Of a stretch of 35,428 nt of DNA, positions 14,851 to 35,428 are shown in pieces (positions within the stretch are counted from its first letter, which is position 1; every line of letters begins with the position of its first letter). The notes under the pieces are model-generated. The model had not been told where the DNA came from. It saw only the letters and a program-made list of their open reading frames with translations, and searched no databases. The DNA is taken from IMG/VR virus record IMGVR_UViG_3300021255_000003; one strand, written 5' to 3'. A program made the position numbers and the translations under genes. This DNA is from a virus.

Positions 14851-16338
14851 CTACTGTATAAAAGGACTATTTAATGGACTATTAAGCACATTGTCACTTA
14901 TTGGTGTAACTTCTGTTATTGTTAGATTATCCCATATAATATTAGCTGTTTGTTCTATATCAACATTACGAGTTATATATTCTCCACTCGATATGTTACC
15001 TTCACTTTTTCTTCTTTGATTGTCAAAATAATTAATTTCATTGTTTAAATTGAAAGTACTGGATAATTCATATTCGTAATTAATCAAACTAAATTCTCCA
15101 GCTTGTTTTATGTAAGTAGTTTTTTTCTTGACTAAATATTCTTTTTTTAAGTCATCTAGAGGAGCATTAAAAAAGGTTTTTGAACCTAATGTTAAAAAAT
15201 TGCTTGAGCTATTTATTTTTAATACAATTTCGGGATTGCTATATGTTTTTATGTAAGATTGTGCTACTTTATTAAGTTCATCTGCGTCCAAAATATCATC
15301 TCTGTTCTCATATCTTGTTATGGTTCCTTTTCTTTGTGTTTGATTATTTATTCTTAATATTTCAGAATTATTGATAATTAATTCTCTTCCTTTAATCAAT
15401 GGAGTATAATTAATAATAATTTGTGTACCTGCTGTATAAGAATCATTTTCATTATTTTCAAATGTATTTTTTCCTGCTTCATAATAAAAATCAAACTCTA
15501 TTCCAATTTCTTTATCTGCTTCTGTTCCTATTGTTTTTTCAATACCATTCACAGTAATGCTATTAATAACTCCTATATTACTTGAAGTAGAAAATGTTTT
15601 ATCATAACCATTAGCTATTATTGTTTCCACATAATCAACATTTCCATATACTTGACTACTCTTTATTATTTGTTTATTTCTATAATCATTAGTTGAATAC
15701 TCATACTTAATGTCATTTATTTTGTTTCTCTTAAAATAATCAGCAGTATATTCTAAGTTGATATTTTCCATTAAATAGTCAACATCATAAAAATCAATTG
15801 CTATTGTATTTTCATCAATTAATCTAGTAAACCAAACTGATTGAGATATTTCACTTAAATATTCAAATACATCGTATGGTGTTTTATCAAGTGTAGAATA
15901 AGCACCAATTATTGATGTTGTATCCTTTATATTGATATTTCCTATTACAAACCCATAACTAGATATTGAATCAATTACTTGCTCTATTGCTTCAGGTATC
16001 GTTTTGTTGTTTATAACATAATCTAATGTATCTGATTCACTTAAAAGAGTTGAATAATCTAATATTTGTAAACTACAATAATGTGGTTTTCTTGGATTTA
16101 ATACCATATTGCCACTATTTTTTACTATTCCAGCAAATACTAGTTCATCGTTGTCATATATTAAACATTTTGAATAATCTTTTGGAAAATAGAAATCGGT
16201 TAATAATTTGCTAGTTCCTTTCCATCTTTTAGGATATACTTTATCTAAAATAACTGAAGAAGGGTTTTTCAACTCTTCTTCAATTTTATAAGAACTATCG
16301 CAAATCACTTCTTCATTATCTATGAATATTTTATTCAC
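14851..16338 (-). CDS. Distal tail protein (Dit / siphovirus tail component)
   Basis: Immediately follows the TMP, with GTG overlapping the TMP stop. Size and position are typical. Confidence 0.65.
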   Translation of the reverse strand: MNKIFIDNEEVICDSSYKIEEELKNPSSVILDKVYPKRWKGTSKLLTDFYFPKDYSKCLIYDNDELVFAGIVKNSGNMVLNPRKPHYCSLQILDYSTLLSESDTLDYVINNKTIPEAIEQVIDSISSYGFVIGNINIKDTTSIIGAYSTLDKTPYDVFEYLSEISQSVWFTRLIDENTIAIDFYDVDYLMENINLEYTADYFKRNKINDIKYEYSTNDYRNKQIIKSSQVYGNVDYVETIIANGYDKTFSTSSNIGVINSITVNGIEKTIGTEADKEIGIEFDFYYEAGKNTFENNENDSYTAGTQIIINYTPLIKGRELIINNSEILRINNQTQRKGTITRYENRDDILDADELNKVAQSYIKTYSNPEIVLKINSSSNFLTLGSKTFFNAPLDDLKKEYLVKKKTTYIKQAGEFSLINYEYELSSTFNLNNEINYFDNQRRKSEGNISSGEYITRNVDIEQTANIIWDNLTITEVTPISDNVLNSPLNSPFIQ

Positions 16339-18212
16339 TATTTACCACCACCATAGTTAAATGAATTTTTGGTACCACCTGAAAATACTTTGATGTCATT
16401 AACAAAGGCTCTACCGAATTTATCTACATCCATATCAGCTTCTACATTTACATATATTGGTTGATTATTAGAAATATTTGGTGTTAGATTACCATACATA
16501 TTAGATACATTTACAGAACCATTTTTTAAGAAATCTAGGCCTATAGTATCTTCTATAGTCTTATGAAGTTCTTTTTCGTTTTCTTCAAATCCTTTTTCTA
16601 ATCCTAACATATTCATTTCTCCAACCCAATAAAATTCAGTTGATGGAGAATGTACTCCAAATATACTTTTAACCTTATTCATAATAGATTTGCCTATACC
16701 TGCTACTTTGTTTAATAACCATTGTTTGGCATTGGCAATACCATTCCATAAACCTTGGATAAGATTCTTACCTATATTTTCTATTCCACTTAATCCACTT
16801 CTTATTTTTGTTTTTACATTATTAGGAATACCTTTTACATTATTAAGTAACCAATTAACATTATTTTTAATACCATTCCATAAGCCTTTTATAGCATTAA
16901 TTCCTATCTCTAACCACATTCTAGGCATTGATTTCCAATAATTCATTATTGATTTGATTATTGTAGGAAGATATGCTAATAAGGTAGGAAGTGCTTGTAT
17001 TAAGCCTTGCATTATTCCTATAAGAAGTTGATATCCAGCTTGTATAAATAATGGTAAATTATCTATTAAAACAGGTATCATTTGTAGAATAGCGTCCACT
17101 ATTAATGGTATTAAAGTTGGCATTTCCTTAGCTAGTGCTTGAACTATCATAATACTTGCTTTTATCAAAGCTTGTAATAATTGTGGTAGTATTTTTACTA
17201 TACCTGTAAAAGCTTGTACTATTCCATTCATTAATACTGGTAATAGTGCTGGTAATGCTTGTACTAAACCATTTATTAAATCTATAGCTCCTTTTATTAT
17301 TACTGGTAATAATTTTTGCAATAATGGTGGTAATTCAGGAATTATTCCATTAACCAATCCTATTATTCCTTCAACTATTTTAGGAGCCATCTCTTCAATA
17401 GATTTTACTACAATTTTACTAAAACTCATTAAACTATCTATTACATCTTCTATGCTTCCTGCACCACTTAAAAAATTTGATATAGATGCTTTTAATGTAG
17501 TAAATGAACCAGCAAATGTTTCGTTTTCTTTAGCGTAGTTTCCTGCGTATTTAGATGTTTTTTCTAAAAACATTTGCATAGTAAGTTCTACTTTTTCAGC
17601 ATTTGTCATTTCACTAGTGCTCTTTTTTATACCTTTTGATAAAGCATAAGCATTAAGTGTTGTATCATTCATTGCAACACCTAAGTTATCCATCATCGTA
17701 AAGTTACCTTTTGCTGCTCCTGCAATACTTTCCATTGCTGCGTTAACATCTATTCCCATTACGGAAGCTACATCAGCAGCTCTTTGCATTGCGTCAGTAG
17801 ATAGGCTCATTGATTTTTCTACAGTTAATCCAGCACCTTGCATTAATGAACCCATTTTATTAGCAGTAGCTAAATAATCATTTTGTGAAAGACCCATTTT
17901 TTTGAATGCTTCAGTACCTTTTTTTTGTACTGTATCAGCAAACTTTTCAAAAACAGCTTCACTACCACCTAATTGTTGTTCTAATTCTCCAGCCATGCTA
18001 ACAGATTTCATTACTAATCCGCCTAATGCGGTACTTGCTGCACCTACACCTACAGCTAGGCCTTTGAATACAGTTGCACCTACAGATTTAATTTTATCTA
18101 AATGACCAGGTGTTTTTTTAGCTTCTTCATTTAGGTTTTTCATCCCTTTTTCAGAAGCATTACTATCCGTAGTGACTTTTAATCTTACTTCTGCATCATT
18201 CTTATTTATCAC
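16338..18212 (-). CDS. Tape measure protein
   Basis: 624 aa, Ala/Gly/Leu-rich helical with hydrophobic central repeats. Follows the chaperone genes. The start is ambiguous: GTG at 18212 or AAG at 18203. Confidence 0.85.
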   Translation of the reverse strand: MINKNDAEVRLKVTTDSNASEKGMKNLNEEAKKTPGHLDKIKSVGATVFKGLAVGVGAASTALGGLVMKSVSMAGELEQQLGGSEAVFEKFADTVQKKGTEAFKKMGLSQNDYLATANKMGSLMQGAGLTVEKSMSLSTDAMQRAADVASVMGIDVNAAMESIAGAAKGNFTMMDNLGVAMNDTTLNAYALSKGIKKSTSEMTNAEKVELTMQMFLEKTSKYAGNYAKENETFAGSFTTLKASISNFLSGAGSIEDVIDSLMSFSKIVVKSIEEMAPKIVEGIIGLVNGIIPELPPLLQKLLPVIIKGAIDLINGLVQALPALLPVLMNGIVQAFTGIVKILPQLLQALIKASIMIVQALAKEMPTLIPLIVDAILQMIPVLIDNLPLFIQAGYQLLIGIMQGLIQALPTLLAYLPTIIKSIMNYWKSMPRMWLEIGINAIKGLWNGIKNNVNWLLNNVKGIPNNVKTKIRSGLSGIENIGKNLIQGLWNGIANAKQWLLNKVAGIGKSIMNKVKSIFGVHSPSTEFYWVGEMNMLGLEKGFEENEKELHKTIEDTIGLDFLKNGSVNVSNMYGNLTPNISNNQPIYVNVEADMDVDKFGRAFVNDIKVFSGGTKNSFNYGGGK

Positions 18213-18684
18213 CTACCTTTTTTTCTAAATAGCCCCACATTTTTTCAAAAGCATTGGTATTTTGAATAATTGGTAGACTATACTTGTTTTTCATTTTCAT
18301 CATAAATCTATGTTTTTGTTCTTCTTGTGTTTTTATAGAACTAGAAGGTTTAGTATATGTTCTGTAATATAAAACTTTTGAAATAGTGGAATTGTCATCT
18401 AACATAAAGCCTTCTAGTAATGAATCAAATTCCCACCAGTCTATATCTTCTTTATTTAAGTTAAGTCCGAACTTCCAAAAATCAACGAAATAGTATTTGT
18501 AATCATAATTTAAATCAAAGTTTCTTTCTTTTAATGCTTTTCCACCATTCTGTGGATTAAACAAATATTTAGAAATTTCATTTAAAATATATCTTTGATT
18601 TTCTTTAATATCTAAACCTAAAAGCTCTAATGCTCTTTCACACTTATAAGGATTATCTTCTTCAAATAACTTGAATATTTTCAT
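18202..18684 (-). CDS. Tail assembly chaperone (Gp15-like)
   Basis: Position between MTP and TMP. N-terminal pattern resembles the bacteriophage Gp15 family. Confidence 0.6.
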   Translation of the reverse strand: MKIFKLFEEDNPYKCERALELLGLDIKENQRYILNEISKYLFNPQNGGKALKERNFDLNYDYKYYFVDFWKFGLNLNKEDIDWWEFDSLLEGFMLDDNSTISKVLYYRTYTKPSSSIKTQEEQKHRFMMKMKNKYSLPIIQNTNAFEKMWGYLEKKVGDK

Positions 18685-18725
18685 TATCCTTTTAAAGGTA
18701 GGATAAAACTTATATATTTTACCAT

Positions 18726-19169
18726 CTATTTTAAGTTCCGTAAGTTGTTGATATTCTTCACAAGGTTGGTAATTTGAGTATTTACTGGTGATATTTGTTT
18801 GTTGATAAAAAAATTTAGAAAGTATCCTCTAATATTTTCTATCATTTCTTCAAATTTATATTCTCCTGCTAATTCTTTGAATTTGTCTTTATGTTCTTTG
18901 AAACAAATATCTATAAATCTCTCATCATTTTTTTCTATATTTTCCCCAATTTCTTGTTCTAGTTTTTCTTTTTCTTCAGCTGTTGCTTTTATATAATCAC
19001 TATATTTTTCTTTTCCTAAACTGAATAAAATGTTTTTTATTTCTAACAACTCACTCTCAGTTATTTGCATGGTAAATTCATATTTTACTTCTTCTTCTCC
19101 TTTTTCGTTGATGTTTGTTAATTGAATCAATTCCTCTATTTCATATTTTTTATTTGTTACTTTTAACAT
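18726..19169 (-). CDS. Tail assembly chaperone (acidic, G-position)
   Basis: Acidic 147-aa protein directly after the MTP terminator. SD GAAGGAG. Confidence 0.6.
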   Translation of the reverse strand: MLKVTNKKYEIEELIQLTNINEKGEEEVKYEFTMQITESELLEIKNILFSLGKEKYSDYIKATAEEKEKLEQEIGENIEKNDERFIDICFKEHKDKFKELAGEYKFEEMIENIRGYFLNFFINKQISPVNTQITNLVKNINNLRNLK

Positions 19170-19190
19170 ATTTTTTCTCCTTCTATATAT

Positions 19191-19224
19191 AAAAAATAAG
19201 GGTAGACTTTAAGAGCCTACCCTT
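19191..19224 (-). terminator. Rho-independent terminator/attenuator after the major tail gene (AAGGGTAG-N11-CTACCCTT plus T6)
   Basis: 8-bp GC-containing stem followed by a T-run on the minus strand. Confidence 0.75.
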
Positions 19225-19231
19225 TAGATAA

Positions 19232-19681
19232 TTATGGTGTTGGTGCTACGTAGTCTGTTTCTGCAAAAGTAGAATTATCATATATTTTTAAATCAAAATC
19301 CACTTGTAAAACTTCTTCTGAATTTGCTTCATAAGTTATATTACTTAATGTTGCTGTAAAATCAATTTGTTTTCCGTTAGTACCTTTAAGTAAATTAACA
19401 ATTCTTGTTTTTACTGTTGCCTCTTCACCTACTGCAAATTCTTTACTTAAGATGAATTGACATACAGCACTTGATTTTTTCATTTTTACTGAAGTAGACC
19501 ATGTTGGGTCTAATCCAGTTTTAACGTTGTTTGATAAGAAAGAATATAAATCTTGCCATGTATCAAGTGATTCTCCCTGATCATAACTTAAATTTAGATT
19601 TATTACTTCTTCGTACTGTGCAGTACTAGTTGAACTTATATCGAACAATAATTTAAATTTATTAATTGAACTTTCGTACTT
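19232..19681 (-). CDS. Major tail protein; proposed AAG start at 19681
   Basis: Assigned by position. The track start is a TTG at 19648 with no SD. SD GGAG (19694-19691) plus 9 nt leads to an in-frame AAG. Confidence 0.6.
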   Translation of the reverse strand, partial: KYESSINKFKLLFDISSTSTAQYEEVINLNLSYDQGESLDTWQDLYSFLSNNVKTGLDPTWSTSVKMKKSSAVCQFILSKEFAVGEEATVKTRIVNLLKGTNGKQIDFTATLSNITYEANSEEVLQVDFDLKIYDNSTFAETDYVAPTP

Positions 19682-20071: not shown

Positions 20072-20428
20072 TTATCCCTTCTTTGCTTCATTAATAGCAT
20101 TTACTAGCATTGTTTGATAATCCTTTTTGTATTTATTGAAAGTTTTTTCAAACCATCTAGGTTGAGCTTGTCTGTTGCCAGCTCCAGCTTTACCACCCTC
20201 GTAATATCTTCTTCTAACGTATGGGCTCCTTTCAATTACAAGTCCCTTTTCAAATTGTGAATGCATTTCACCAGACTGATACATCTGTCCTGTATCTCTA
20301 TAAGTAAATTCGTTAGAATCTTTATAAATTTGTTCTGCTATGGATAAAATAGCTTTTTCTTGAGCTTTTTTGACAACATCTTTTTCAACCCAATTAAGTG
20401 CTTTTTCTAAACTATCAAACTTTCTCAT
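20072..20428 (-). CDS. Head-tail joining protein (Minor_capsid_2 / HK97 gp10-like)
   Basis: Track ORF. ATGA overlap with the upstream stop. Family resemblance by eye. Confidence 0.65.
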   Translation of the reverse strand: MRKFDSLEKALNWVEKDVVKKAQEKAILSIAEQIYKDSNEFTYRDTGQMYQSGEMHSQFEKGLVIERSPYVRRRYYEGGKAGAGNRQAQPRWFEKTFNKYKKDYQTMLVNAINEAKKG

Positions 20429-20757
20429 TGTAATAATACCTCATAATGATGAGCATTTACAGAATCAGGATAAAGAGTGGAAGCTTCAACTATTTTATAT
20501 TCTTTGTTATTAAAGATAATTTTACTATTATTAATAGGAGCAGCGGTTAAGCCTAAAGAATTTACTAAATCATAAAACATTCTAGCCGTTGCTACTATTT
20601 CCCGTCCATTTCTTGTTATATTTAGTTTTAAATTATCTTCAATTTTTACAAATCTTAAATTAGTTGATTCTCCCCACTCATCACCTTCACCTGTATTTCC
20701 TAAATACTCTTTATAAACACAACTATGTGGTAGTAGTCTTTTTGGAATTGGTCTCTT
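20425..20757 (-). CDS. Head-closure protein (Minor_capsid_1-like); no canonical start, proposed AAG start at 20757
   Basis: Hand-translated 110 aa: (K/M)RPIPKRLLPHSCVYKEYLGNTGEGDEWGE...HHYEVLLQ. The frame opens after TAG at 20766-20764. The first ATG is 59 codons in. Absent from the ORF track. Confidence 0.6.
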   Translation of the reverse strand, partial: KRPIPKRLLPHSCVYKEYLGNTGEGDEWGESTNLRFVKIEDNLKLNITRNGREIVATARMFYDLVNSLGLTAAPINNSKIIFNNKEYKIVEASTLYPDSVNAHHYEVLLQ

Positions 20758-20872
20758 TTTTTTCTACCTTTTTCTCTGTATTTTCAATTACTTTCCATCC
20801 AGCCATTTCATACCATTTTAAAGCACCTTCTGTTACTTCTTTTGTAATTGCACCAATTTTTACCTTTACCAT
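20723..20872 (-). CDS. Small hypothetical protein (49 aa, MVKVKIGAITKEVTEGALKWYEMAGWKVIE...)
   Basis: SD GGAAGGTG plus 5 nt, then ATG. Overlaps the start of the head-closure gene in another frame. Confidence 0.5.
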   Translation of the reverse strand: MVKVKIGAITKEVTEGALKWYEMAGWKVIENTEKKVEKKETNSKKTTTT

Positions 20873-21257: not shown

Positions 21258-22103
21258 TTAAGCATTTTTTACTTTTACGATTACAGCTTCTGCATTAGTC
21301 AATACATCTGTATAAACCATACGGCCTTGTAAAGCACTTGCACCAATGTGAGAACCATCTTTTAAGTCATTAATAGTTGGCTCTACTTTCCATTCGTCAA
21401 TTGCTTGTGTCCAGTCTACACCATAAACTATATATTCAACATTCTTATCGTTTTTGTCTTTTTCTAAATCTTGTACGATTACATTAACACCGTTGATTTT
21501 TCCAACAACACCATTTCGTGCTAATTCAGCACCAATTTGTGAAGCGGTATTTGAATATTTTTCATCAGTTAATAGTAGTGTTTCAGTTGCATAGTCTATA
21601 GCTACATACATTCTGTTTTTATCAATACCCTTTTTAGCTAATATAGCTATATCTTTTACAATATTTGAATATACGTTTTCAGCAGTTGAATCTTCTTGTG
21701 TTGATGGTGTACCACCTAATAAAGCTTCAATAGCATCAGCTTCTAATGTTTTAGCTACTGAATATGCTCCACTTTCTAGTCTTTGTGCTACTAAATTATC
21801 TGGCACTGCTTGTGCTTCATATCCATCGATTAATTCATTAATTGCTTTATGATTATCAACTGGGATATTTTTATAACTAGTTGCACTTTGAGATAAAGAT
21901 GCACCATCTTTTACATCATAATCATTAATTGCTACATCAGTATTTCTTACTGGTACTTTTACAGCTCCAGCTACTGGACTTCCTTCATAGTCTCTTGAAA
22001 ATGTATTTCTTATTTTTAGACTTGGTCTCATTAACTTAACAATTGCATTAGCAAATCTTTCTTGTCTTTCATGAGTACCATTTGTTCCGATTGCGTTTGC
22101 CTT
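21258..22103 (-). CDS. Major capsid protein; proposed AAG start at 22103 (track ORF starts at ATG 22031)
   Basis: 24 sense codons (KANAIGTNGTHERQERFANAIVKL) lie upstream of the track ATG with no canonical start. SD AAAAGGAG sits 9 nt before AAG, which follows TGA TGA TAA. Confidence 0.7.
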   Translation of the reverse strand, partial: KANAIGTNGTHERQERFANAIVKLMRPSLKIRNTFSRDYEGSPVAGAVKVPVRNTDVAINDYDVKDGASLSQSATSYKNIPVDNHKAINELIDGYEAQAVPDNLVAQRLESGAYSVAKTLEADAIEALLGGTPSTQEDSTAENVYSNIVKDIAILAKKGIDKNRMYVAIDYATETLLLTDEKYSNTASQIGAELARNGVVGKINGVNVIVQDLEKDKNDKNVEYIVYGVDWTQAIDEWKVEPTINDLKDGSHIGASALQGRMVYTDVLTNAEAVIVKVKNA

Positions 22104-24719: not shown

Positions 24720-25031
24720 TTAATTAAAAAAATTTTTACAAACATCATGTATCATATCATGGCTTTTACTACTTAAATCACATAATATTTCTTCATTATA
24801 ATTTATTTCATCTGATAAATAAGACCAGATATAACAATGCATTAATTCGTGATACAAAGTTTCTTTTTGCTTTTCTTTTGATACTTCTTTATTGATTAAT
24901 ATTTGTTGAGTGCTTAATTTTGTTGCACCATAATAATAACTATTTTCATTATTATCATTAAATACTTTTTTTACTTCATCAGCTGTTGCATAATCAATTG
25001 TCCAATTGTAATTATTCATTTTGAAGTTCAT
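24720..25031 (-). CDS. Small HExxH metallopeptidase-like protein (103 aa)
   Basis: YHELMHCY motif. SD AAGGAG plus 7 nt, then ATG at 25031; the track start at 25058 lies inside the portal gene. Confidence 0.55.
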   Translation of the reverse strand: MNFKMNNYNWTIDYATADEVKKVFNDNNENSYYYGATKLSTQQILINKEVSKEKQKETLYHELMHCYIWSYLSDEINYNEEILCDLSSKSHDMIHDVCKNFFN

Positions 25032-26475
25032 TTGCATTCTCCTTATCACCCATACCATAGAAATCTATTCCTTCAGGTGTAATTATTTTATTATCTTCTT
25101 TTATTTTTTCTATCTCATCTGTTACTTCTGCTTCTTCATAATGTAAATATTTAGTCATGAACTTTTCTTTACTTATTAAACCAGCATTATATAGATTAAT
25201 TCCACGATTAATTAGTGCTTCCTCATCTTGTATAATACTATCATCAAATGTAATAGATATTTCTTTATACTTAATACCTTCCATTTCACATATAGTTGCT
25301 ATTAAATCATATAAAGCATTGTATATTGGAATTTGGTGTTGAGATTTAGTCCTAAATGTATCACTATTTTCACTAACTACTTCAGTAGCAGTTTTTAATC
25401 CATCTTTATCAAATGAATAAAAATCATTACCTAATCTTACACCAGCACTTAAGTATTTTAATTCAGTATTAATGGCTTCTATATATTCATTTCTTAGACT
25501 AAAGTCTATTTCTTTTACTGGTTGATTTTCCATTCCTTCTAGTGCTACATATATGTCATCAGAGGTATCAAAATAACTAGCATAAATGATATTGTTGTTA
25601 TCATCTACTCCTGTAGCTTTCTTTTTAACCGCACTTCTATCTACTAATATTCTTCTTCTACCACTTACATATTCGTGGTCAAATCCATCATATTTAATAT
25701 CTATTGCTTTAAATTTATCTAAATGATTAGCAAGTATTGATAATCCCATTGGGCTACCTGTATCAAAGTTATTTGCTATTGGTAATCTCCATACTTGGAA
25801 TCTTGGATGTTCTGTTTCTATTACTTCATCTTCTTCAATATCAGGATATAATGTAGAAACATCTATTGCTTTTCCTAATGTATTTTCACTTTTTGATTTA
25901 TATAATTCAGTTGCTTTTTTATATTCTCCATTATCATATTCATGATAAGTTAGTAATGTATAATATATTTTCTTATTTTCAGTACCTTCTACTGTTCGTG
26001 ATACTGTTATTATTCCATTTATATACGAATTAGTATATTTATATGGTAAAACAACATCTCCATCTATATAATCTACAATTGTTTTGTCATCCTTTTTATA
26101 TTCAACAGTAACCATCGTACCGTAGGCATATTCTTTTTCTAGAAATGGTAAAAAATTAGTACTAAAACTATTTTCTTTACTATCTAACACATCCCATAAC
26201 TTTTTAGTATTCTTTTTGTTGTCTAATTTTATTTCTGCTCTTTCACTCCATAATAGATTAGAAAAATCTTCACATATTTTCTTTGGCATATTTAAAGTTT
26301 TTCTTTCAACTAAACATTCCTTACCATCAACCAATTTAGCCTTATAGTAGTGAAAATCATTTACACTACCTCTGTAATATTGGTGACAAATTGCCATCAT
26401 ATCATATATAGTTCCTACTACTACGTTGATATTTTTTTTACTTAGTACTTGTTGAATATTATTGTATAGTTCCTT
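25012..26475 (-). CDS. Portal protein (SPP1 gp6-like); proposed AAG start at 26475 (track ORF starts at ATG 26400)
   Basis: The frame is open from TGA at 26505-26503. Strong SD AAAGGTGGTG plus 5 nt leads to AAG. No ATG/GTG/TTG for 25 codons. TAAAG overlap with the upstream stop. Confidence 0.75.
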   Translation of the reverse strand, partial: KELYNNIQQVLSKKNINVVVGTIYDMMAICHQYYRGSVNDFHYYKAKLVDGKECLVERKTLNMPKKICEDFSNLLWSERAEIKLDNKKNTKKLWDVLDSKENSFSTNFLPFLEKEYAYGTMVTVEYKKDDKTIVDYIDGDVVLPYKYTNSYINGIITVSRTVEGTENKKIYYTLLTYHEYDNGEYKKATELYKSKSENTLGKAIDVSTLYPDIEEDEVIETEHPRFQVWRLPIANNFDTGSPMGLSILANHLDKFKAIDIKYDGFDHEYVSGRRRILVDRSAVKKKATGVDDNNNIIYASYFDTSDDIYVALEGMENQPVKEIDFSLRNEYIEAINTELKYLSAGVRLGNDFYSFDKDGLKTATEVVSENSDTFRTKSQHQIPIYNALYDLIATICEMEGIKYKEISITFDDSIIQDEEALINRGINLYNAGLISKEKFMTKYLHYEEAEVTDEIEKIKEDNKIITPEGIDFYGMGDKENANELQNE

Positions 26476-26666
26476 TAAATCACCACCTTTTGAATTGTTA
26501 TTTCAGGAACAGAATCAATACTACCTGAAAAATCAATTGCTTTGACGCCTTTAACTAGGTTCCCTTTTTCAAAAACTTCAATTTTTTTGTCATTTACTAT
26601 AATAACTAAATCGCTATCAACAAACTTCTTTGCAATTTCAGTTACTTTCTCCAAAGTTTCTAACAT
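26475..26666 (-). CDS. Small hypothetical protein between terL and portal
   Basis: Track ORF. SD AAAGGAG plus 7 nt, then ATG. Confidence 0.65.
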   Translation of the reverse strand: MLETLEKVTEIAKKFVDSDLVIIVNDKKIEVFEKGNLVKGVKAIDFSGSIDSVPEITIQKVVI

Positions 26667-26670
26667 ATTA

Positions 26671-28035
26671 TCACTCCTTTATACCTAATTTTCTTAAATT
26701 ATCTTTTACCCAATATTGGTATAAATCACAAGTATGATCTGCATAGTAATAACTTATATCATTTGAATAAGTGTTAAAGTATTCTTCTCCACCTGTAAAT
26801 TCCTTTTCATTTTTATCAGGTATAGGTTTACCCTTTTCAACACTACCTTCTAACCATTGATAATTTTCTATTTCTTTTTTTACTATTTTGTTATTATTGT
26901 TATTAATTATTCTTATTTTGCCTTTGCTTAAAAAAGTTATTGAATAATCTACTAATTCTTCTTTGTCTCTACCTTTATTTACAGGATTAAATCTCTTACC
27001 ATAATCCGAATATAATTGATTTCTTAATGCTCCTTCAGCACTATCTATTGTTTCTCTATCAAGACTAGTTTTATATTTTTTTAACATCGCTATTTCAAAA
27101 TTGAATATATCTTTGGATAATTCCGATGGTGCTCTCTTTTTTGATTTTTCGTGTGGACTATAGTAATAGGTGTCTAACCAATACCAATATCCATCACTTC
27201 CATAGCCGAAACATCCGCATGTGGTAGCACTTGTTTGATGACCACCATCAGCTGAAAAGTCCATATATAATATCCGTACGTTGTTTTTATCTATATAATC
27301 TTCTTCTACCCATTCAAATTGTTCAGGATTATATATCATTCCTTCTAATCCTATTACTTCACCTAAATATATCCATCTATATCTTTTAATATCAAATTGT
27401 TTTATTCTTTCAGCCTCTTCAATTGCGATTCTTCCTATCCATTCTACAGGAACAGTTCTATAGTCACTTAAAGAATATAAAACATTATCTTGTTTTTGTT
27501 TTTCAATAGCCCATTTATTAACCCAATGATATTTATTCTTTGGTGGATTATATGAATATAAAGCCATAAACCAATCATTATTTCCACGTGTAAATGTTGC
27601 TATAATTTGGTCTATATCTTCTGAATTTTTCCATCCTGTCAATTCTTCAAACCAAACTATTTTTATTAATTTGTTTTCATCAATTGTTCCTTTTACTGCT
27701 TCATAATCGTCTCCACCAGCAAAATATATTGTGTTTCCATTAGAAAAAAAAGTTATTTCCATTGGTGCTAATTTTGCTTTATAGTGTATGTTTTCAATTA
27801 ATCCTAATCTTCTGCAGGCTCTTTTAATTTCTTTGTATACTGATTTTCTTAAATCTACTTGGTGTTTTCTTAATACTACTGCAGAACAGTCATTTTCTTT
27901 TATGCAGTTGTATACTATCTTTAAAGAAATCATAGATGTTTTAGTTGAATTTCTTCCTCCTGCATATATCTGATGTGTTTTGTGACTTTTAAATGTTCTT
28001 CTAAAAGAAGGAGCTATTTGAGTACTAATCTTCAT
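26671..28035 (-). CDS. terL: Terminase large subunit (PBSX/Terminase_3 family)
   Basis: N-terminal ATPase pattern (YAGGRNSTKTS Walker A-like). Size and position fit. Confidence 0.9.
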   Translation of the reverse strand: MKISTQIAPSFRRTFKSHKTHQIYAGGRNSTKTSMISLKIVYNCIKENDCSAVVLRKHQVDLRKSVYKEIKRACRRLGLIENIHYKAKLAPMEITFFSNGNTIYFAGGDDYEAVKGTIDENKLIKIVWFEELTGWKNSEDIDQIIATFTRGNNDWFMALYSYNPPKNKYHWVNKWAIEKQKQDNVLYSLSDYRTVPVEWIGRIAIEEAERIKQFDIKRYRWIYLGEVIGLEGMIYNPEQFEWVEEDYIDKNNVRILYMDFSADGGHQTSATTCGCFGYGSDGYWYWLDTYYYSPHEKSKKRAPSELSKDIFNFEIAMLKKYKTSLDRETIDSAEGALRNQLYSDYGKRFNPVNKGRDKEELVDYSITFLSKGKIRIINNNNNKIVKKEIENYQWLEGSVEKGKPIPDKNEKEFTGGEEYFNTYSNDISYYYADHTCDLYQYWVKDNLRKLGIKE

Positions 28036-28417
28036 CTGCTTCAGGTAAATCGTCTATGATTTCAACTCTATTATTAACGGTGCCATCAAATTCTTGTTTA
28101 GTGCTAAATTCATCTTTGGCTTTTCTCTCTAAATACCATTTAGCCATTTCTTTGTCTCCTTTATCTAGAGCTTTATGAACAGCCATTCTTGCCTTTATTT
28201 TTTCGTATTCTTTTAGCATATTAATTCTCTCTAAAAATTCAGGGTATTCAGCTAAATATGCATAAAAAGTAGATTCACGAACATCGGCAAAAAAACACGC
28301 TTCACGATTAGTACACCCCATCATAAAAGCTTCTTCTAATTTTTGTAGTTCTTTTTCTCCTATTGCTCTTGGTCTACCTACTTGATTTCCATTATCTTTT
28401 TTCTTTTTTCTTTTCTT
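28025..28417 (-). CDS. terS: Terminase small subunit; start ambiguous (AAG at 28417 after SD GAAGGTGG, or GTG at 28426 inside the SD)
   Basis: Basic N-terminus plus HTH-like GRPRAIGEKELQKLEEAFMMGCTNREA. Overlaps the terL start. Confidence 0.75.
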   Translation of the reverse strand, partial: KKRKKKKDNGNQVGRPRAIGEKELQKLEEAFMMGCTNREACFFADVRESTFYAYLAEYPEFLERINMLKEYEKIKARMAVHKALDKGDKEMAKWYLERKAKDEFSTKQEFDGTVNNRVEIIDDLPEADED

Positions 28418-28440: not shown

Positions 28441-28514
28441 TGGTAGCGGATGTTGGATTTGCACCACTCCACAGGCTAAAGAGACCTGTATGCTACTATT
28501 ACACTACACCCGCG
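28441..28514 (-). tRNA. Initiator-tRNA-like gene with anticodon CUU (non-canonical T and D arms), encoded ACCA 3' end
   Basis: 5'-CGCGGGUGUAGUGUAAUAGUAGCAUACAGGUCUCUUUAGCCUGUGGAGUGGUGCAAAUCCAACAUCCGCUACCA-3'. 7 acceptor pairs plus a C1xU72 mismatch. Anticodon arm CAGGU-CUCUUUA-GCCUG. Hand-folded only. Confidence 0.5.
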
Positions 28515-28541
28515 ATAAATAAAACTGCCTAATATAGGCAG
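28515..28541 (-). terminator. Rho-independent terminator (CTGCCTA-TAT-TAGGCAG plus TTTTATTT)
   Basis: Perfect 7-bp stem. The U-tract ends at the first base of the tRNA-like gene. Confidence 0.7.
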
Positions 28542-28694
28542 CCCACTAAGAAAAACAATTGTTTATATTCCCTAATCCACATCAAGAATATTTGCCTTGC
28601 ACCAGTAAAGGATAGATATAGTTATTATTTAATTCTTTCTGCATTCTAATAAAGGAGGTGCGTTTTGAAAGAATACTATAGCAAGGTTCCCACT

Positions 28695-28778: not shown

Positions 28779-29192
28779 TTATAGTTTTTTTGCAATTTCT
28801 CTATTTATTTGTTTTATCCTATCTATTCCATATCCTAACCTCTCAGCTGTCTGTCTATTAGATAGTCCTAACATGTATCTACACTTGAATACATTTAATT
28901 CTAAATTATTCATATTAGTTATGCTTTTGTATATATCATCTATATAATTTACTATTATATTTTTTTCCTCTATAAGCAATTTTCTATCTTTGTCTAAATT
29001 TTCAACTTTAGCAAAAGCTTGTAAATATTTATCTTCTGTTATACCTACAATTTCTAATTTAATATCAGAATAACTGGATCCTTTTAAATCTAATTTTTTA
29101 TGTATTATAAATTCTATTCTTTCTGTTAATTCTTTTATGGTTCTATCAATTATTATTTTTTCATCTATTTGCTTTTTTAATTGCTTATACAT
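28779..29192 (-). CDS. Late transcriptional regulator (sigma-70 region-4 / ArpU-RinA-like)
   Basis: C-terminal LNVFKCRYMLGLSNRQTAERLGYGIDRIKQINREIAKKL is a region-4 HTH. It is the last gene before the packaging module. Confidence 0.7.
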   Translation of the reverse strand: MYKQLKKQIDEKIIIDRTIKELTERIEFIIHKKLDLKGSSYSDIKLEIVGITEDKYLQAFAKVENLDKDRKLLIEEKNIIVNYIDDIYKSITNMNNLELNVFKCRYMLGLSNRQTAERLGYGIDRIKQINREIAKKL

Positions 29193-33648: not shown

Positions 33649-33859
33649 TCCTTTTTTTTCTTAATCTATAAATTATTCTATTCTTTTGCTTTATTAGCAA
33701 ATCATAGTCTTCAAGCCTTTTTTTATAACTTTCTATATTTTGTTTTAAAGTTTTTATTTCATCTTCGTAATTTTCTAATTCATATATTAGACATCTATAT
33801 GATGGAAAAGCATATAACAAATTAAATTTATATTCTTCTTTTGTCATAAATTTTGTCAT
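33602..33859 (-). CDS. Hypothetical coiled-coil protein
   Basis: Track ORF. Confidence 0.55.
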   Translation of the reverse strand: MTKFMTKEEYKFNLLYAFPSYRCLIYELENYEDEIKTLKQNIESYKKRLEDYDLLIKQKNRIIYRLRKKRSVQDEKLARLQEPFF

Positions 33860-33875
33860 TTAGCATTACCCCACT

Positions 33876-34400
33876 CTAAATATATTTAAAACTATAGCCT
33901 TTACAAGTTTTTATTCTGTTCTTTAACACATCCCTAATAGAAAACACAGTTACTCCCATATCTTGTGCTGCACTATAAGAACAATCATATATTTTTCCAT
34001 CACTTCTCATAATACTTTTTTTATTTCTTTCGTTATATTTTTTCAAATTATTTAGCTCATTGTAATATGCGTGTTTCATGTTATATTTTTTAGTACACCA
34101 TTCTAAATTAGTTACTACATTATTCGAAGGATTACCATCAATATGATTTATTTCTGGTAAATTTTGAAGATTTGGAATAAATTCTTTAGCTACTAATCTA
34201 TGAACTATACAATTTTTTCTAATATTATTTTTATATAAAGTTACATATTGTCTATTTCTTGTGTTAGTATATAGTTTTAATATTTTAATCTTTTCTTTTT
34301 TTATTATGTTGTTTATAAAAACAAGTCTTCTTATTCTTCCTAAATTGCTTACTTGATATAATCCTTCATATTCTTTTATATCTTTCCATATTTCTTCCAT
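33876..34400 (-). CDS. HNH homing endonuclease (NUMOD4 plus HNH_3 type)
   Basis: WKDIKEYEGLYQVSNLGRIR is a NUMOD4 motif. HRLVAKEFIPN...INHIDGNPSNNVVTNLEW is the HNH core. Confidence 0.8.
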   Translation of the reverse strand: MEEIWKDIKEYEGLYQVSNLGRIRRLVFINNIIKKEKIKILKLYTNTRNRQYVTLYKNNIRKNCIVHRLVAKEFIPNLQNLPEINHIDGNPSNNVVTNLEWCTKKYNMKHAYYNELNNLKKYNERNKKSIMRSDGKIYDCSYSAAQDMGVTVFSIRDVLKNRIKTCKGYSFKYI

Positions 34401-34744
34401 TATAAATTTCCTCTCCCAGCATTGTTATATTCTCTCTGAAGCTGGTTTTCTATTACTCTAATTTGTAGTTTAATGCTGTTAATGGCTTCTTGATTAGCTT
34501 GATAAACTGCTTCCTTTACATCTCTTTGAAATCTCTTCCTTGCTACTTCAGGAACACCATACACAACTTGTTGTATTAGTGTGACTGGCATTCCTTTTTC
34601 TGCTCTTAATTTTAAAGCTTCTTCTCTTAAAGTTATCTTATAATCTCTTTCAGCTTCAGCAAATTCTGTTCCAGTTTTTCTTAGCGATTTAATACTTAAA
34701 TCTAATTCTTTAATTTTATACTGAAGCTCATTAAATAAATCCAT
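34400..34744 (-). CDS. Conserved phage coiled-coil protein, function unknown
   Basis: Track ORF. Confidence 0.6.
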   Translation of the reverse strand: MDLFNELQYKIKELDLSIKSLRKTGTEFAEAERDYKITLREEALKLRAEKGMPVTLIQQVVYGVPEVARKRFQRDVKEAVYQANQEAINSIKLQIRVIENQLQREYNNAGRGNL

Positions 34745-34748
34745 AATA

Positions 34749-34892
34749 TCAATCCCTTTTATACATCATAGAATTTAATTTTTCTTTTACTTCTTTTGCG
34801 TTTACTATTTCTAGCCTACTTTTAGGTTGTTGACCTTTAATATACTTATTGATTATTTTAATTGCTTCTTCTAATACTCTTTTATCTGTCAT
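34749..34892 (-). CDS. Small hypothetical protein (47 aa)
   Basis: SD AGGAG plus 5 nt, then ATG. Below the track cutoff. Confidence 0.4.
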   Translation of the reverse strand: MTDKRVLEEAIKIINKYIKGQQPKSRLEIVNAKEVKEKLNSMMYKRD

Positions 34893-34900
34893 ATTCACTC

Positions 34901-35326
34901 CTAAAATGGTAAATCATTATCATTAATTTCTGCTTCTACTTGCTTTCCCATTTCTTCAAACGGATCATTATCTTGTTTGTTTTCTTGAACACTAGCTTTG
35001 TTATCTTCTTTTTTTTGTTGTAAGAAAGTTACTTTATCAGCTACTACTTCTGTAACATATACTTTTTTACCTTCTTTATTTTCATATGTTCTAGTTTGTA
35101 ACCTACCACTTACTGCTATTAAGTCTCCTTTATGTGTATATTTTTTTACTGTTTCTGCAATTTGTCCCCACATAGCTATATTTATGAAGTCACTATCATA
35201 ATTACCATCTGTATTCTTATAATCTCTTTGTACTGCTAAACTAAAACTTGCATATGCTTTATTTGACTGTGTATATCTTAATTCTGCGTCTTTTGTCAAT
35301 CTTCCAATTAAAATTACTTTATTCAT
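34901..35326 (-). CDS. ssb: Single-stranded DNA-binding protein
   Basis: MNKVILIGRLTKDAELRYT OB-fold N-terminus and acidic C-terminal tail ending DDLPF. ATG at 35326 overlaps the upstream stop. Confidence 0.9.
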   Translation of the reverse strand: MNKVILIGRLTKDAELRYTQSNKAYASFSLAVQRDYKNTDGNYDSDFINIAMWGQIAETVKKYTHKGDLIAVSGRLQTRTYENKEGKKVYVTEVVADKVTFLQQKKEDNKASVQENKQDNDPFEEMGKQVEAEINDNDLPF

Positions 35327-35428
35327 CATACATATCATCCTTTCCAACTGTTAAGGCACAAAATAGGAAAACTAATATAAGTAATAAAAATATTGCACCT
35401 AATATTGCTAAAAATCCTATTAATATAT
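35322..35428. repeat. Terminal duplicate, right copy, identical to 1-107
   Basis: Exact 107-bp match to the window start. Most likely a circular-assembly overlap. Confidence 0.97.

What the first reader, a model, noticed from the sequence alone, without database searches (positions are those of the whole stretch)
26400..26505. Portal gene: strong SD followed by AAG, with 25 start-less codons before the first ATG
The portal frame is open from TGA (26505-26503). The previous gene ends in AAAGGTGGTGATTTAAAG. That gives SD AAAGGTGGTG, a 5-nt spacer, then AAG at 26475-26473, overlapping the upstream TAA as TAAAG (the AAG analogue of TAATG coupling). The next 25 codons, ELYNNIQQVLSKKNINVVVGTIYD, contain no ATG, GTG or TTG. 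The track ATG at 26400 has only a distant AGGA. SPP1-type portals carry the conserved ..YY.G...I motif roughly 35-45 residues from the N-terminus. That fits the AAG start; from the ATG the motif would be at residue 8.
Basis: partly seen in the sequence, partly recalled or inferred. Interest (0 to 1): 0.75.

Follow-up and report, generated by a model that had tools for sequence, protein, structure and literature searches.

The report
Phage initiator tRNA reads AAG starts
The portal gene most likely starts at the lysine codon AAG, because this phage carries its own initiator-type tRNA whose anticodon is changed from CAU to CUU; several other late genes start the same way, which would be a natural private start codon not found described in the literature searched.

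Summary
In 35 distinct relatives the codon aligned with the ATG or GTG start of outgroup portals is always AAG. It sits at the same distance from an extended Shine-Dalgarno (SD) sequence, often directly after an in-frame stop. The 25 codons behind it evolve as protein (dN/dS 0.09).

The cause lies 2 kb upstream. Window 28514-28441 (- strand) encodes a tRNA that ARAGORN missed and Rfam scores at 38.6 bits. It descends from the bacterial initiator tRNA: no 1:72 base pair, G2:C71, C3:G70, A73. Its anticodon is CUU.

This tRNA is present in 26 of 26 AAG-type loci with enough flank, and in 0 of 17 ATG/GTG-type loci. Other phages carry the same kind of tRNA with anticodon CCU, and their late genes start with AGG. 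Counts of distinct sites: CUU loci AAG 16, AGG 0; CCU loci AGG 16, AAG 3 (doubtful).

In this window the major capsid, head-tail adaptor and major tail genes also start at AAG. The small terminase probably does, and the tape measure possibly does.

No description of such a system turned up in the literature searched. No experiment exists yet.

The parts
26473..26475 (-). AAG, proposed initiation codon of the portal gene
   Evidence: Aligned with the ATG/GTG start of outgroup portals. AAG in 35/35 distinct start-less relatives. 7 nt after the SD core.
26479..26490 (-). Extended Shine-Dalgarno sequence AAAGGTGGTGAT for the portal
   Evidence: Read directly. Matches the complement of the 16S 3' end (AGAAAGGAGGTGATC, from my own knowledge) with one mismatch. 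Relatives have the same geometry.
25012..26475 (-). Portal gene as re-annotated (487 codons plus stop); SPP1 gp6-like / PHROG 533
   Evidence: PHROG 533, E 1.2e-95, aligned from residue 6. Relatives carry PF05133.
26401..26475 (-). 25-codon N-terminal segment that the ATG-26400 gene call leaves out
   Evidence: dN/dS 0.09 with pS 0.66. The other two frames are closed in 35/35 relatives.
28441..28514 (-). Phage-encoded initiator-derived tRNA, anticodon CUU (28481-28479), loop CUCUUUA with U37; C1xU72 mismatch, G2:C71, C3:G70, A73, encoded CCA
   Evidence: Rfam RF00005, 38.6 bits (gathering score 29), E 5e-7. Missed by ARAGORN. Homologous copies in 26/26 AAG-type loci and 0/17 canonical-type loci. 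Alignment and covariation.
28517..28544 (-). Intrinsic terminator-like hairpin plus T tract, directly upstream of the tRNA
   Evidence: 10-pair stem; 0.2 expected in shuffles.
28025..28417 (-). Small terminase; probable AAG start 28417-28415 (the called GTG 28426 lies inside the SD core GGTGG)
   Evidence: tRNA-less relatives start ATG/GTG at the residue aligned with AAG. L090 has no in-frame GTG.
21258..22103 (-). Major capsid gene; AAG start 22103-22101 directly after in-frame TAA; SD AAAAGGAGTGAT 22120-22109. The first ATG (22031) is 24 codons in.
   Evidence: PHROG 267. About 20 relatives read ATG GCA AAT GCA (MANAIG) where the window reads AAG GCA AAC GCA.
20425..20757 (-). Head-tail adaptor gene; AAG start 20757-20755 (TAG AAA AAA AAG AGA CCA). 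The first ATG is codon 62 of the open frame.
   Evidence: PHROG 793 aligns from residue 4 of the open frame. PF10665 aligns from residue 5 of the AAG-started protein. Relatives read ATG ATG/ATA AAA CCA ATT CCA at the aligned position.
19232..19681 (-). Major tail gene; AAG start 19681-19679 (GGAGTGATTAATA AAG). The first canonical start, TTG 19648, has no SD.
   Evidence: Of 12 distinct relatives, 11 have an SD followed 3-5 nt later by AAG as first codon. One contig (L289) has AGG there.
16338..18203 (-). Tape measure gene; possible AAG start 18203-18201 (GGTAGGTGATAAAT AAG). Ambiguous, because an in-frame GTG 18212 lies inside the SD.
26475..26666 (-). 63-aa ORF between the large terminase and the portal. 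Its last codons carry the portal SD and its TAA overlaps AAG. Absent from most relatives.
   Evidence: no family match.

Best explanation
The window is a temperate siphophage of uncultured low-GC gut Bacilli. At the head of its packaging and morphogenesis operon it encodes a tRNA that descends from the bacterial initiator tRNA, with the anticodon changed from CAU to CUU (28514-28441, - strand). Several late genes have replaced ATG by the matching codon AAG, placed 7-9 nt after an extended Shine-Dalgarno sequence. These are the portal (26475), major capsid (22103), head-tail adaptor (20757) and major tail (19681) genes, probably the small terminase (28417), and possibly the tape measure (18203). 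Proposed mechanism: the 30S subunit binds the strong SD, and the phage tRNA pairs C34-U35-U36 with G3-A2-A1 of AAG in the P site. U37 may add a fourth pair with the nearly invariant A at -1. Translation of the portal therefore starts at 26475, giving a 487-residue protein. Shown by computation: the position, conservation and coding nature of AAG and the extension; the initiator ancestry and fold of the tRNA; its co-occurrence with AAG starts; and the parallel CCU/AGG system in other phages. Inferred: the tRNA is expressed and charged (probably with Lys, because LysRS reads the anticodon and A73, while MetRS needs CAU) and formylated (the 1:72 mismatch, 2:71 and 3:70 are the Fmt determinants). 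Also inferred: the weak anticodon stem (no 3 G:C pairs) is compensated by the extended SD. The biological purpose is inferred too: late-protein synthesis is tied to a phage-owned initiator. This would act as a translational lock, or as a private initiation channel during host takeover or defence.
For: (1) AAG is at the start position in 35/35 distinct start-less portal genes, while 25% of their other Lys codons are AAG and conserved Lys codons 13, 14 and 31 flip between AAA and AAG. (2) Outgroups have ATG (16) or GTG (6) at that same codon with the same SD spacing. The NJ tree shows at least two switches. (3) An in-frame TAA or TGA lies directly 5' of AAG in most relatives. (4) Extension dN/dS is 0.09 and the other frames are closed. 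PHROG 533 aligns from residue 6. (5) The same ATG-to-AAG replacement occurs in the capsid, adaptor, minor capsid, tail and small terminase genes. (6) The tRNA scores 38.6 bits on Rfam. Its cloverleaf has 12 of 18 pairs with compensatory changes. There is never a Watson-Crick 1:72 pair, G2:C71 and C3:G70 are invariant, and A73 is present. The well-conserved subtype found in relatives (not the window's own copy) is 79-82% identical to tRNAfMet against 57-61% to tRNALys or elongator tRNAMet. The nearest annotated phage tRNAs are nearly all named tRNA-Met. (7) The tRNA is present in 25 of 26 AAG-type loci with enough flank, and the 26th was found further upstream (L340). It is present in 0 of 17 canonical-type loci. 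(8) Codon-anticodon covariation over distinct SD-positioned start-less sites: CUU loci AAG 16, AGG 0; CCU loci AGG 16, AAG 3 doubtful. The AGG genes of L352 are the capsid, tape measure, tail and adaptor genes. (9) -1 is A in 35/35 portal AAG sites against 12/22 canonical sites. (10) Known biochemistry: the 1:72 mismatch plus 2:71 and 3:70 are Fmt determinants, and an extended SD can bypass the 3GC defect (PMC5389676 and its reference to Shetty 2014).
Against: There is no experimental evidence: no N-terminal peptide, no ribosome profiling, no proof that the tRNA is expressed, charged or formylated. The three consecutive G:C pairs of the anticodon stem, a hallmark of initiators, are not kept (G:C or A:U, then G:C, then U.G). 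The window's own tRNA copy is a divergent subtype: 62% identical to tRNAfMet, U11:A24, a weak T stem, and missed by ARAGORN. The association within the portal family is partly phylogenetic, because the AAG loci form two related clades. The independent replicate is the CCU/AGG group. One related contig with AGG at two start positions (L258/L289) yielded no tRNA in the sequence I could fetch. In E. coli, Lys on an initiator tRNA is a poor Fmt substrate (from my memory of RajBhandary's work). ATG 26400 could still be used in parallel.
Confidence: 0.85

Rival explanations
1. AAG is the start codon, but it is read by the host's ordinary tRNAfMet(CAU) as a weak near-cognate, helped by the very strong SD. 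The phage tRNA(CUU) is then an unrelated elongator supplement for the rare Lys codon AAG.
For: Firmicutes use AUU/AUA starts with extended SD sequences (PMC13009471). In E. coli most codons give 0.01-1% initiation. Phage tRNAs often match rare codons, and AAG is only 25% of Lys codons here.
Against: The tRNA is initiator-derived and never has a 1:72 pair in 27 sequences. By established knowledge this excludes EF-Tu and elongation and directs formylation (PMC5389676). [quoted passage not shown] The capsid and tail proteins need high expression. The start codon switches to AGG exactly where the tRNA anticodon is CCU. The tRNA is absent from relatives with canonical starts.
Confidence: 0.07
2. 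The portal starts at ATG 26400 as called. The upstream 25 codons are an untranslated relic or a regulatory leader.
For: ATG ATG is conserved in most relatives, and gene callers choose it.
Against: dN/dS is 0.09 over synonymous sites near saturation. There is no stop or frameshift in 35 diverged copies, and the other frames are closed. Homology to portal N-termini covers the segment. There is no usable SD before 26400. The first Met of the pair is F, Y, L or I in some relatives.
Confidence: 0.03
3. The extension is translated by recoding from upstream: a frameshift or hop from the 63-aa ORF or from the mini-ORF GTG-ATN-TAA, or readthrough of the in-frame TAA.
For: GTG ATA TAA AAG parallels 'M I Q K' in variants that have CAA instead of TAA. 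The window has the string T TTA AAG.
Against: The GTG lies inside the SD with 0-2 nt spacing. The register of the mini-ORF differs between relatives (TAAAAG against TAAAG) and between genes, while SD-to-AAG spacing is constant. Most relatives have no upstream ORF in a usable frame. Outgroup proteins begin at the residue aligned with AAG, not three residues earlier.
Confidence: 0.02
4. Sequencing or assembly error, or a recent inactivating mutation, of an ATG or TTG start in this one genome.
For: TTA-to-TTG or AAG-to-ATG would each need only one base change.
Against: The same AAG is seen in 35 distinct sequences from independent metagenomes and MAGs, and in several genes per phage.
Confidence: 0.005

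Closest known systems
Engineered initiator tRNA anticodon mutants and orthogonal initiation systems (RajBhandary/Varshney CUA, GAC and other mutants; amber-initiator systems; PMC11744186; bioRxiv 10.64898/2026.04.16.719103)
   Same: An initiator tRNA body with a changed anticodon starts translation at the complementary non-AUG codon behind an SD. The amino acid then follows the anticodon, and formylation follows the acceptor stem.
   Different: Those systems are laboratory constructs. This one is natural, phage-encoded, fixed in many lineages with two anticodons (CUU, CCU), coupled to late genes, and carries U37 and a non-3GC anticodon stem.
Phage stop-codon recoding with phage-encoded suppressor tRNAs (crAss-like and Lak phages; Ivanova 2014 and Borges 2022, from my own knowledge)
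   Same: A phage-encoded tRNA with a non-standard anticodon changes how late or structural genes are decoded, so standard gene callers mis-annotate them. The likely role is timing or insulation of late expression.
   Different: That system changes elongation and termination (TAG or TGA read as an amino acid). This one changes initiation: stop codons keep their meaning and AAG stays Lys inside genes.
Conserved non-canonical start codons with extended SD in Firmicutes (infC AUA/AUU, ccpN AUA, cvfC1 AUU in S. aureus, PMC13009471; ebpA ATT in E. faecalis, PMC4447247)
   Same: A non-AUG start is conserved across relatives and depends on an unusually long SD at optimal spacing. It was found through start-less conserved N-terminal extensions.
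   Different: Those codons keep the central U and are read weakly by host tRNAfMet to limit expression. AAG and AGG lack the central U, are used for abundant virion proteins, and have a dedicated cognate tRNA.
Natural initiator tRNA variants lacking full 3GC pairs (mycoplasmas, alpha-proteobacteria; PMC5389676) and the extended-SD bypass of the 3GC defect (Shetty et al. 2014 PNAS, cited there)
   Same: The anticodon stem has A:U or G:C, then G:C, then a G/U wobble pair, instead of three G:C pairs. Extended SD sequences accompany its use.
   Different: Those tRNAs keep the CAU anticodon and serve all genes. Here the third pair is U31.G39 (reverse orientation) and the tRNA serves a subset of phage genes.
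AGG-to-Met sense-codon reassignment in gut Bacilli UBA7642, order RFN20 (Codetta; PMC8629427)
   Same: The same broad host group (uncultured low-GC gut Bacilli), and a new tRNA(CCU) that changes the meaning of AGG.
   Different: That is an elongator tRNA derived from tRNAArg, affecting AGG throughout host genes. Here the tRNA(CCU) is initiator-derived and phage-encoded, and AGG is affected only as a start codon.

Membership tests
SPP1 gp6-like portal protein (PF05133 / PHROG 533) | Significant profile match over most of the length | tested here: met
   PHROG 533, E 1.2e-95, residues 6-465. A direct Pfam scan of the window protein found nothing at 0.01, but close relatives carry PF05133.
SPP1 gp6-like portal protein (PF05133 / PHROG 533) | Gene follows the large terminase and precedes the minor capsid (Mu F-like) gene | tested here: met
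   TerL 28035..26671 (PF04466). Neighbouring genes of relatives carry Phage_min_cap2.
Bacterial initiator tRNA (tRNAfMet) | tRNA cloverleaf | tested here: met
   RF00005, 38.6 bits against a gathering score of 29. 12 of 18 consensus pairs have compensatory changes.
Bacterial initiator tRNA (tRNAfMet) | No Watson-Crick pair at 1:72, with G2:C71 and C3:G70 (Fmt determinants) and A73 | tested here: met
   C1xU72 in the window; C, G or A opposite A72 in 26 other sequences. Columns 2:73 and 3:72 are invariant G:C and C:G, and A73 is present in all.
Bacterial initiator tRNA (tRNAfMet) | Three consecutive G:C pairs at 29:41, 30:40 and 31:39 | tested here: not met
   G:C or A:U, then G:C, then U.G. 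This resembles the au/GC/gu variants of mycoplasmas (PMC5389676), but with the third pair reversed.
Bacterial initiator tRNA (tRNAfMet) | Anticodon CAU, loop CUCAUAA | tested here: not met
   The loop is CUCUUUA (anticodon CUU, U37) or CUCCUUA (anticodon CCU, U37). So it is a derivative of the initiator, not a tRNAfMet.
Bacterial initiator tRNA (tRNAfMet) | A11:U24 in the D stem | tested here: inconclusive
   A:U in 16 of the 28 aligned rows (one of them the E. coli reference). U:A in the other 12, including the window copy.
Bacterial initiator tRNA (tRNAfMet) | Formylated, binds IF2 and the P site, excluded from EF-Tu | not testable with these tools
   Inferred only from the acceptor-stem features.
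Elongator tRNA-Lys(CUU), as ARAGORN labels it | Paired 1:72 and overall similarity to tRNALys | tested here: not met
   There is never a 1:72 pair. The nearest annotated phage hits are nearly all 'tRNA-Met'.
Near-cognate non-AUG starts read by host tRNAfMet (AUU/AUA/AUC/CUG class) | Central U of the start codon kept | tested here: not met
   AAG and AGG. [quoted passage not shown]
Near-cognate non-AUG starts read by host tRNAfMet (AUU/AUA/AUC/CUG class) | Extended SD at optimal spacing, conserved among relatives | tested here: met
Phage code change by a phage-encoded tRNA (stop-codon recoding type) | In-frame stop codons inside late genes, read as sense | tested here: not met
   The window ORFs are intact under table 11. 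The stop in front of AAG is outside the protein, because outgroups start at the AAG position.
Phage code change by a phage-encoded tRNA (stop-codon recoding type) | A phage tRNA with an altered anticodon, with the affected codons concentrated in late or structural genes | tested here: met
   In the window all AAG starts lie in the terminase-to-tape-measure block.
Programmed frameshift or hop | A conserved slippery or take-off site in a fixed register with an upstream translated ORF | tested here: not met
   The register and the upstream ORF vary.

The most novel reading that the evidence does not exclude
Some gut phages run a natural orthogonal initiation system. A phage-encoded initiator tRNA with a reprogrammed anticodon (CUU or CCU) creates private start codons (AAG or AGG, possibly read as four bases A-AAG through U37) for capsid, portal, tail and packaging genes. 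These proteins would then begin with (formyl-)Lys or Arg rather than Met, and their synthesis would depend on the phage's own tRNA. This would break the rule that start codons keep a central U. It would also mean that many late genes in gut viromes are annotated with truncated N-termini.
Probability: 0.8. Interest if true: 0.95.

Novelty: categorically new. Interest (0 to 1): 0.93.

Why it matters
If confirmed, four things follow.

First, this would be, to my knowledge, the first natural case of start-codon reassignment or expansion by a dedicated initiator tRNA, and the first natural bacterial-type start codons without the central U.

Second, it adds a new layer of phage gene control: late-protein synthesis tied to a phage-owned initiator. 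This parallels stop-codon recoding, but acts at initiation.

Third, it explains a systematic annotation error. About half of the 120 best database relatives of this portal are called from the internal Met. The capsid, tail, adaptor and terminase genes are also mis-started.

Fourth, it offers a ready-made, evolution-tested orthogonal initiator/start-codon pair, including a possible four-base interaction and tolerance of a non-3GC stem with an extended SD. This is useful for synthetic biology and for studying P-site decoding and IF3 fidelity.

Tried and rejected
- **DNA similarity to isolated phages:** none was found.
- **PDB sequence search with the portal profile:** no hit.
- **Direct Pfam scan of the window portal:** no hit at 0.01.
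- **Mini-ORF, hop, frameshift or readthrough at GTG-ATN-TAA:** considered, because 'VI*K' parallels 'MIQK'. Rejected because the register varies, the GTG is inside the SD, and outgroups start at the AAG position.
- **Alternative genetic code of the host (TAA sense, or AAG as Met):** rejected. ORFs are intact and AAG alternates with AAA at conserved Lys positions.
- **First tRNA test:** I searched IMG/VR for CGGGCTCTTAACCCG, assuming a 3GC anticodon stem. It found only ordinary tRNA-Lys(CUU) genes in the tRNA arrays of large phages and was uninformative.
- **ARAGORN on the window:** it found no tRNA, which delayed the finding. The copy was recognised by eye from its 3' end, then by homology and by Rfam.
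- **Search for a phage-encoded translation factor:** nothing was seen among 20 early-region ORFs.
- **Contig 3300045988_172427:** it has AGG at the capsid and tail starts, but neither pattern scan recovered a tRNA from it.
- **Literature:** eight full-text searches found no natural bacterial or phage AAG or AGG start and no phage initiator tRNA with a changed anticodon.
Full report
**1. The observation**

On the - strand the portal frame is open from TGA 26505-26503. The upstream 63-aa ORF (26666..26475) ends ...CAA AAG GTG GTG ATT TAA. The codon AAG at 26475-26473 is in frame with the called ATG 26400 and overlaps that TAA by one base. The 24 codons between them (ELYNNIQQVLSKKNINVVVGTIYD) contain no ATG, GTG or TTG. 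The only SD-like element before ATG 26400 is an AGGA 12 nt upstream.

The string AAAGGTGGTGAT (26490-26479) matches the complement of the 16S 3' end with one mismatch. Its core GGTGG ends 7 nt before AAG. So the description is accurate. On its own it is not statistically remarkable. The weight comes from comparison.

**2. Homologs extend into the 'start-less' segment**

A tblastn search against isolated phages aligned Bacillus phage portals (PfNC7401, IEBH, Deep-Purple) from query positions 6-12, which is inside the extension. Their N-termini read MFGNIVAKVRRWMYKLGLIKG and MFKKIKDNLRRLLHAMKIIKG.

PHROG 533 (portal) aligns from residue 6 of the AAG-started protein, E 1.2e-95.

The large protein database returned 1475 relatives. 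Of the best 120, about half are called from 'MMAIW...' (the equivalent of 26400). About half carry the extension x-LY-x-x-IQ-x-x-LSKK-x-IN-VVVG-x-IYD.

**3. What sits at the start position in relatives**

I fetched DNA for relatives from IMG/VR, GTDB genomes, metagenomes and Logan/ENA contigs. I then read the codon 32 codons upstream of the conserved [WY]YRG anchor.

- Among 59 distinct genes the codon is AAG in 35, ATG in 16 and GTG in 6. One locus has ATG one codon earlier, and one has an indel.
- The SD-to-start geometry is the same in both classes: L097 GGAGTGATAATA-ATG against L104 GGAGTGATTTAA-AAG.
- In most AAG loci an in-frame TAA (once TGA) lies directly 5' of AAG, so the frame cannot start further upstream.
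- In the few where that codon is sense (CAA, CCA, AAA, GAA, AGA), gene callers pick a GTG that is part of the SD itself. AAG is still there.
- AAG is invariant at codon 1 (35/35). Only 25% (428 of 1706) of the other Lys codons in the same genes are AAG, and the conserved Lys codons 13, 14 and 31 alternate between AAA and AAG.
- Codons 2-26 have dN/dS 0.09 at pS 0.66, as constrained as the following 50 codons (0.05). Both other frames contain stops in 35/35.
- A neighbour-joining tree places ATG-type genes as outgroups. It shows two AAG subclades, each sister to an ATG/GTG group, so the start codon has switched at least twice at this one position.

Taken together, these results leave AAG as the only consistent candidate for the first translated codon.

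**4. It is not only the portal**

I scanned the window for ORFs whose SD-positioned first codon is not canonical and compared each candidate with its relatives.

- **Major capsid gene (PHROG 267).** It reads AAAAGGAGTGATGATAA AAG GCA AAC GCA, with AAG at 22103 directly after an in-frame TAA. The first ATG is 24 codons in. About 20 relatives read ATG GCA AAT GCA (MANAIG...) at the aligned codon. Several others read AAG, and one reads AGG.
- **Head-tail adaptor (PHROG 793, PF10665).** It reads TAG AAA AAA AAG AGA CCA ATT CCA, where relatives read ATG ATG/ATA AAA CCA ATT CCA. Its first ATG is codon 62.
- **Major tail gene.** It reads GGAGTGATTAATA AAG TAC GAA. Eleven of its 12 distinct relatives have an SD, then 3-5 nt, then AAG as first codon. 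One contig has AGG there.
- **Minor capsid gene.** It is ATG in the window but AAG in L089-L091 (GGTGATATA AAG TCT TTA against GGTGATATAA ATG TCT TTA).
- **Small terminase.** It reads AAGGAGGTGGTATCA AAG in many loci. The in-frame GTG is inside the SD and is out of frame in L090. tRNA-less relatives start ATG or GTG at the residue aligned with AAG.
- **Tape measure gene.** It is ambiguous.

Capsid and tail proteins are the most abundant virion proteins, so 'a weak codon to keep expression low' is not a sufficient explanation.

**5. The cause: an initiator-derived tRNA with anticodon CUU**

ARAGORN on 60 related loci found a 'tRNA-Lys (ctt)' just upstream of the small terminase gene in 15 loci. 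All 15 are AAG-type.

Its sequence is, for example in L103, CGCAGGGTGGAGCAGTCTGGTAGCTCGCAAGTCTCTTTAGCTTGAGGTCGTTGGTTCAAATCCAACCCCTGCAACCA. This is plainly an initiator tRNA body:

- C1 opposite A72, with G2:C71, C3:G70 and A73.
- The GAGC...GCTC D stem with A11:U24, and the GGTTCAAATCC T arm.
- 79-82% identity to E. coli and B. subtilis tRNAfMet, against 57-61% to tRNALys and elongator tRNAMet.
- The nearest annotated tRNAs in isolated phages are nearly all labelled tRNA-Met.
- The anticodon loop is CUCUUUA instead of CUCAUAA. That means A35 has become U35 (anticodon CUU, cognate to AAG) and A37 has become U37.

The window has a homologous copy at 28514-28441, with the anticodon at 28481-28479. 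ARAGORN missed it, but Rfam's tRNA model scores it 38.6 bits against a gathering score of 29 (E 5e-7). This copy belongs to a divergent subtype: C1xU72, a possible 8-bp acceptor stem, and a weak T stem.

Across 27 phage sequences the consensus cloverleaf has 18 pairs, 12 of them with compensatory changes. Position 1:72 is never Watson-Crick.

The three G:C pairs of the initiator anticodon stem are not kept. The pairs are G:C or A:U, then G:C, then U.G. This recalls the au/GC/gu variants of mycoplasmas. It also recalls the finding that an extended SD can bypass a 3GC defect (PMC5389676 and Shetty 2014 cited there).

A terminator-like hairpin (28544-28522) lies directly upstream of the tRNA. Before it lies an ORF with a weak sigma-70 region-4 match. 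This fits the tRNA being the first element of the late transcript.

**6. Association and covariation**

The motif GTCTCTTTAGC occurs in 25 of the 26 AAG-type portal loci that have at least about 1.8 kb of upstream flank. The 26th (L012) has the tRNA further upstream in its contig (L340). The motif occurs in none of the 17 ATG/GTG-type loci with at least 2.4 kb of flank.

Because the AAG loci are related to one another, an independent replicate matters, and one exists. Two pattern scans of IMG/VR recovered initiator-like tRNAs with the loop CUCCUUA (anticodon CCU, cognate to AGG). There are at least 12 distinct sequences in about 32 contigs. All have a 1:72 mismatch, G2:C71, C3:G70 and A73.

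I counted distinct ORFs of at least 80 codons whose SD-positioned first codon is A-N-G other than ATG, and which have no SD-preceded canonical start within at least the next six codons:

| tRNA anticodon in locus | AAG | AGG |
|---|---|---|
| CUU | 16 | 0 |
| CCU | 3 (all doubtful; two of them have an ATG two codons away) | 16 |

In L352 the AGG genes are the major capsid (PHROG 1328), tape measure, major tail (PHROG 158) and head-tail adaptor (PHROG 132) genes. These are the same functions as in the window but belong to different protein families.

The start codon therefore follows the anticodon.

**7. The -1 position**

The base before AAG is A in 35/35 portal sites, while -2 and -3 vary. 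Canonical portal sites have A at -1 in 12 of 22. Most other AAG and AGG sites also have A at -1.

U37 of the tRNA could pair with it, giving CUUU:AAAG. This fits the 'extended codon-anticodon' idea for initiation, which I know from the older literature. It remains a hypothesis.

**8. Context**

The window is a temperate siphophage genome. It carries a serine integrase, a CI-like repressor, Erf, SSB, a replication initiator, HNH endonucleases, the terminase-to-tail block, and no translation factor.

MAG titles place close relatives in uncultured gut Bacilli or 'Tenericutes', Ca. Coprosoma and Ca. Onthousia.

**9. Literature**

- Hecht et al. put non-near-cognate codons at 0.01-1% of AUG in E. 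coli.
- AAG and AGG are the two one-base variants of AUG reported not to work in eukaryotes.
- S. aureus uses AUU and AUA starts with extended SD sequences (PMC13009471).
- Codetta reported an AGG-to-Met elongator reassignment in gut Bacilli (PMC8629427).
- None of eight full-text searches found a natural AAG or AGG start in bacteria or phages, or a phage initiator tRNA with a changed anticodon. The library lacks most subscription journals, so prior description cannot be excluded.

**10. Verdict**

The portal most likely starts at AAG 26475.

The best explanation is a phage-encoded initiator tRNA(CUU) that makes AAG a start codon for late genes. I put this at about 0.85. Expression, charging (probably with Lys), formylation and the biological purpose are all inferred. 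The decisive tests are N-terminal proteomics and matched or mismatched tRNA/reporter pairs.

Noticed in passing
window 18202-18828 (- strand), overlapping ORF 18726-19208: A 208-codon ORF whose first ATG is codon 49. PHROG 706 aligns from residue 30. It overlaps the preceding ORF between the major tail and tape measure genes. This looks like the usual tail-assembly-chaperone -1 frameshift pair (G/GT type), not an AAG start.
   Followed up: partly
L258 (capsid) and L289 (tail), both from contig IMGVR_UViG_3300045988_172427: A member of the window's own phage family has AGG where relatives have AAG, at both the capsid and the tail start. This predicts a CCU version of the tRNA in that contig. 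Neither pattern scan recovered one.
   Followed up: partly
L336, L341, L345, L361, L362, L364, L371, L375, L376, L378, L381, L387, L389 and others: A diverse set of phage tRNAs with an initiator acceptor stem (C, A or G at position 1 opposite A72; G2:C71; C3:G70; A73) and the anticodon loop CUCCUUA (CCU). Their late genes start with AGG behind strong SD sequences.
   Followed up: yes
window 28441-28514 and the same subtype in L007, L090, L092, L093, L095, L098, L099, L108: This tRNA subtype is invisible to ARAGORN. It seems to have an 8-bp acceptor stem (G8:C63 extra), a T stem of 3-4 pairs with TGCAAAT in place of TTCAAAT, and U11:A24. Its folding and processing may be unusual.
   Followed up: partly
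L001 (Bacillus phage PfNC7401, KX227758.1) about 1510-1560: The annotated portal start (ATG, 'MGLIKG') is probably 15 codons too short. A TTG behind GGGGGTGAT gives MFKRLISGIRQVLYK..., which matches the IEBH and Deep-Purple N-termini.
   Followed up: partly
L096 about 800-900: This portal locus reads GGTGATATAAAAGGAAACTATAT. Relative to its neighbours it has one extra A after AAG GAA, which puts AGG in frame at the start position. This may be an assembly indel in a 4.3-kb contig or a real variant.
   Followed up: no
window 28782-29192 (- strand): A 137-aa ORF just upstream of the terminator and tRNA has a weak Sigma70_r4 match (E 6e-4, below the Pfam cut-off). It is a candidate late-gene activator (ArpU/RinA-like by position).
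   Followed up: partly
window 26475-26666 (- strand): A 63-aa ORF with no family match is inserted between the large terminase and the portal. Most relatives lack it. Its 3' end recreates the SD that in relatives is formed by the terminase 3' end (AAG GAG TGA).
   Followed up: partly
window 20756-20772 (- strand): The adaptor start lies in a purine run GAGAAAAAGGTAGAAAAAAAAG, inside the 3' part of a 49-codon upstream ORF (ATG 20872 to TAG 20724). The overlap is 34 nt.
   Followed up: no
window ends (1-2400 and 33800-35428): Replication and recombination genes (Erf, replication initiator, SSB, HNH) lie at both ends, and the integrase/repressor module is at 3-6.2 kb. The window looks like a complete, circularly permuted phage genome rather than a prophage with host flanks.
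   Followed up: no
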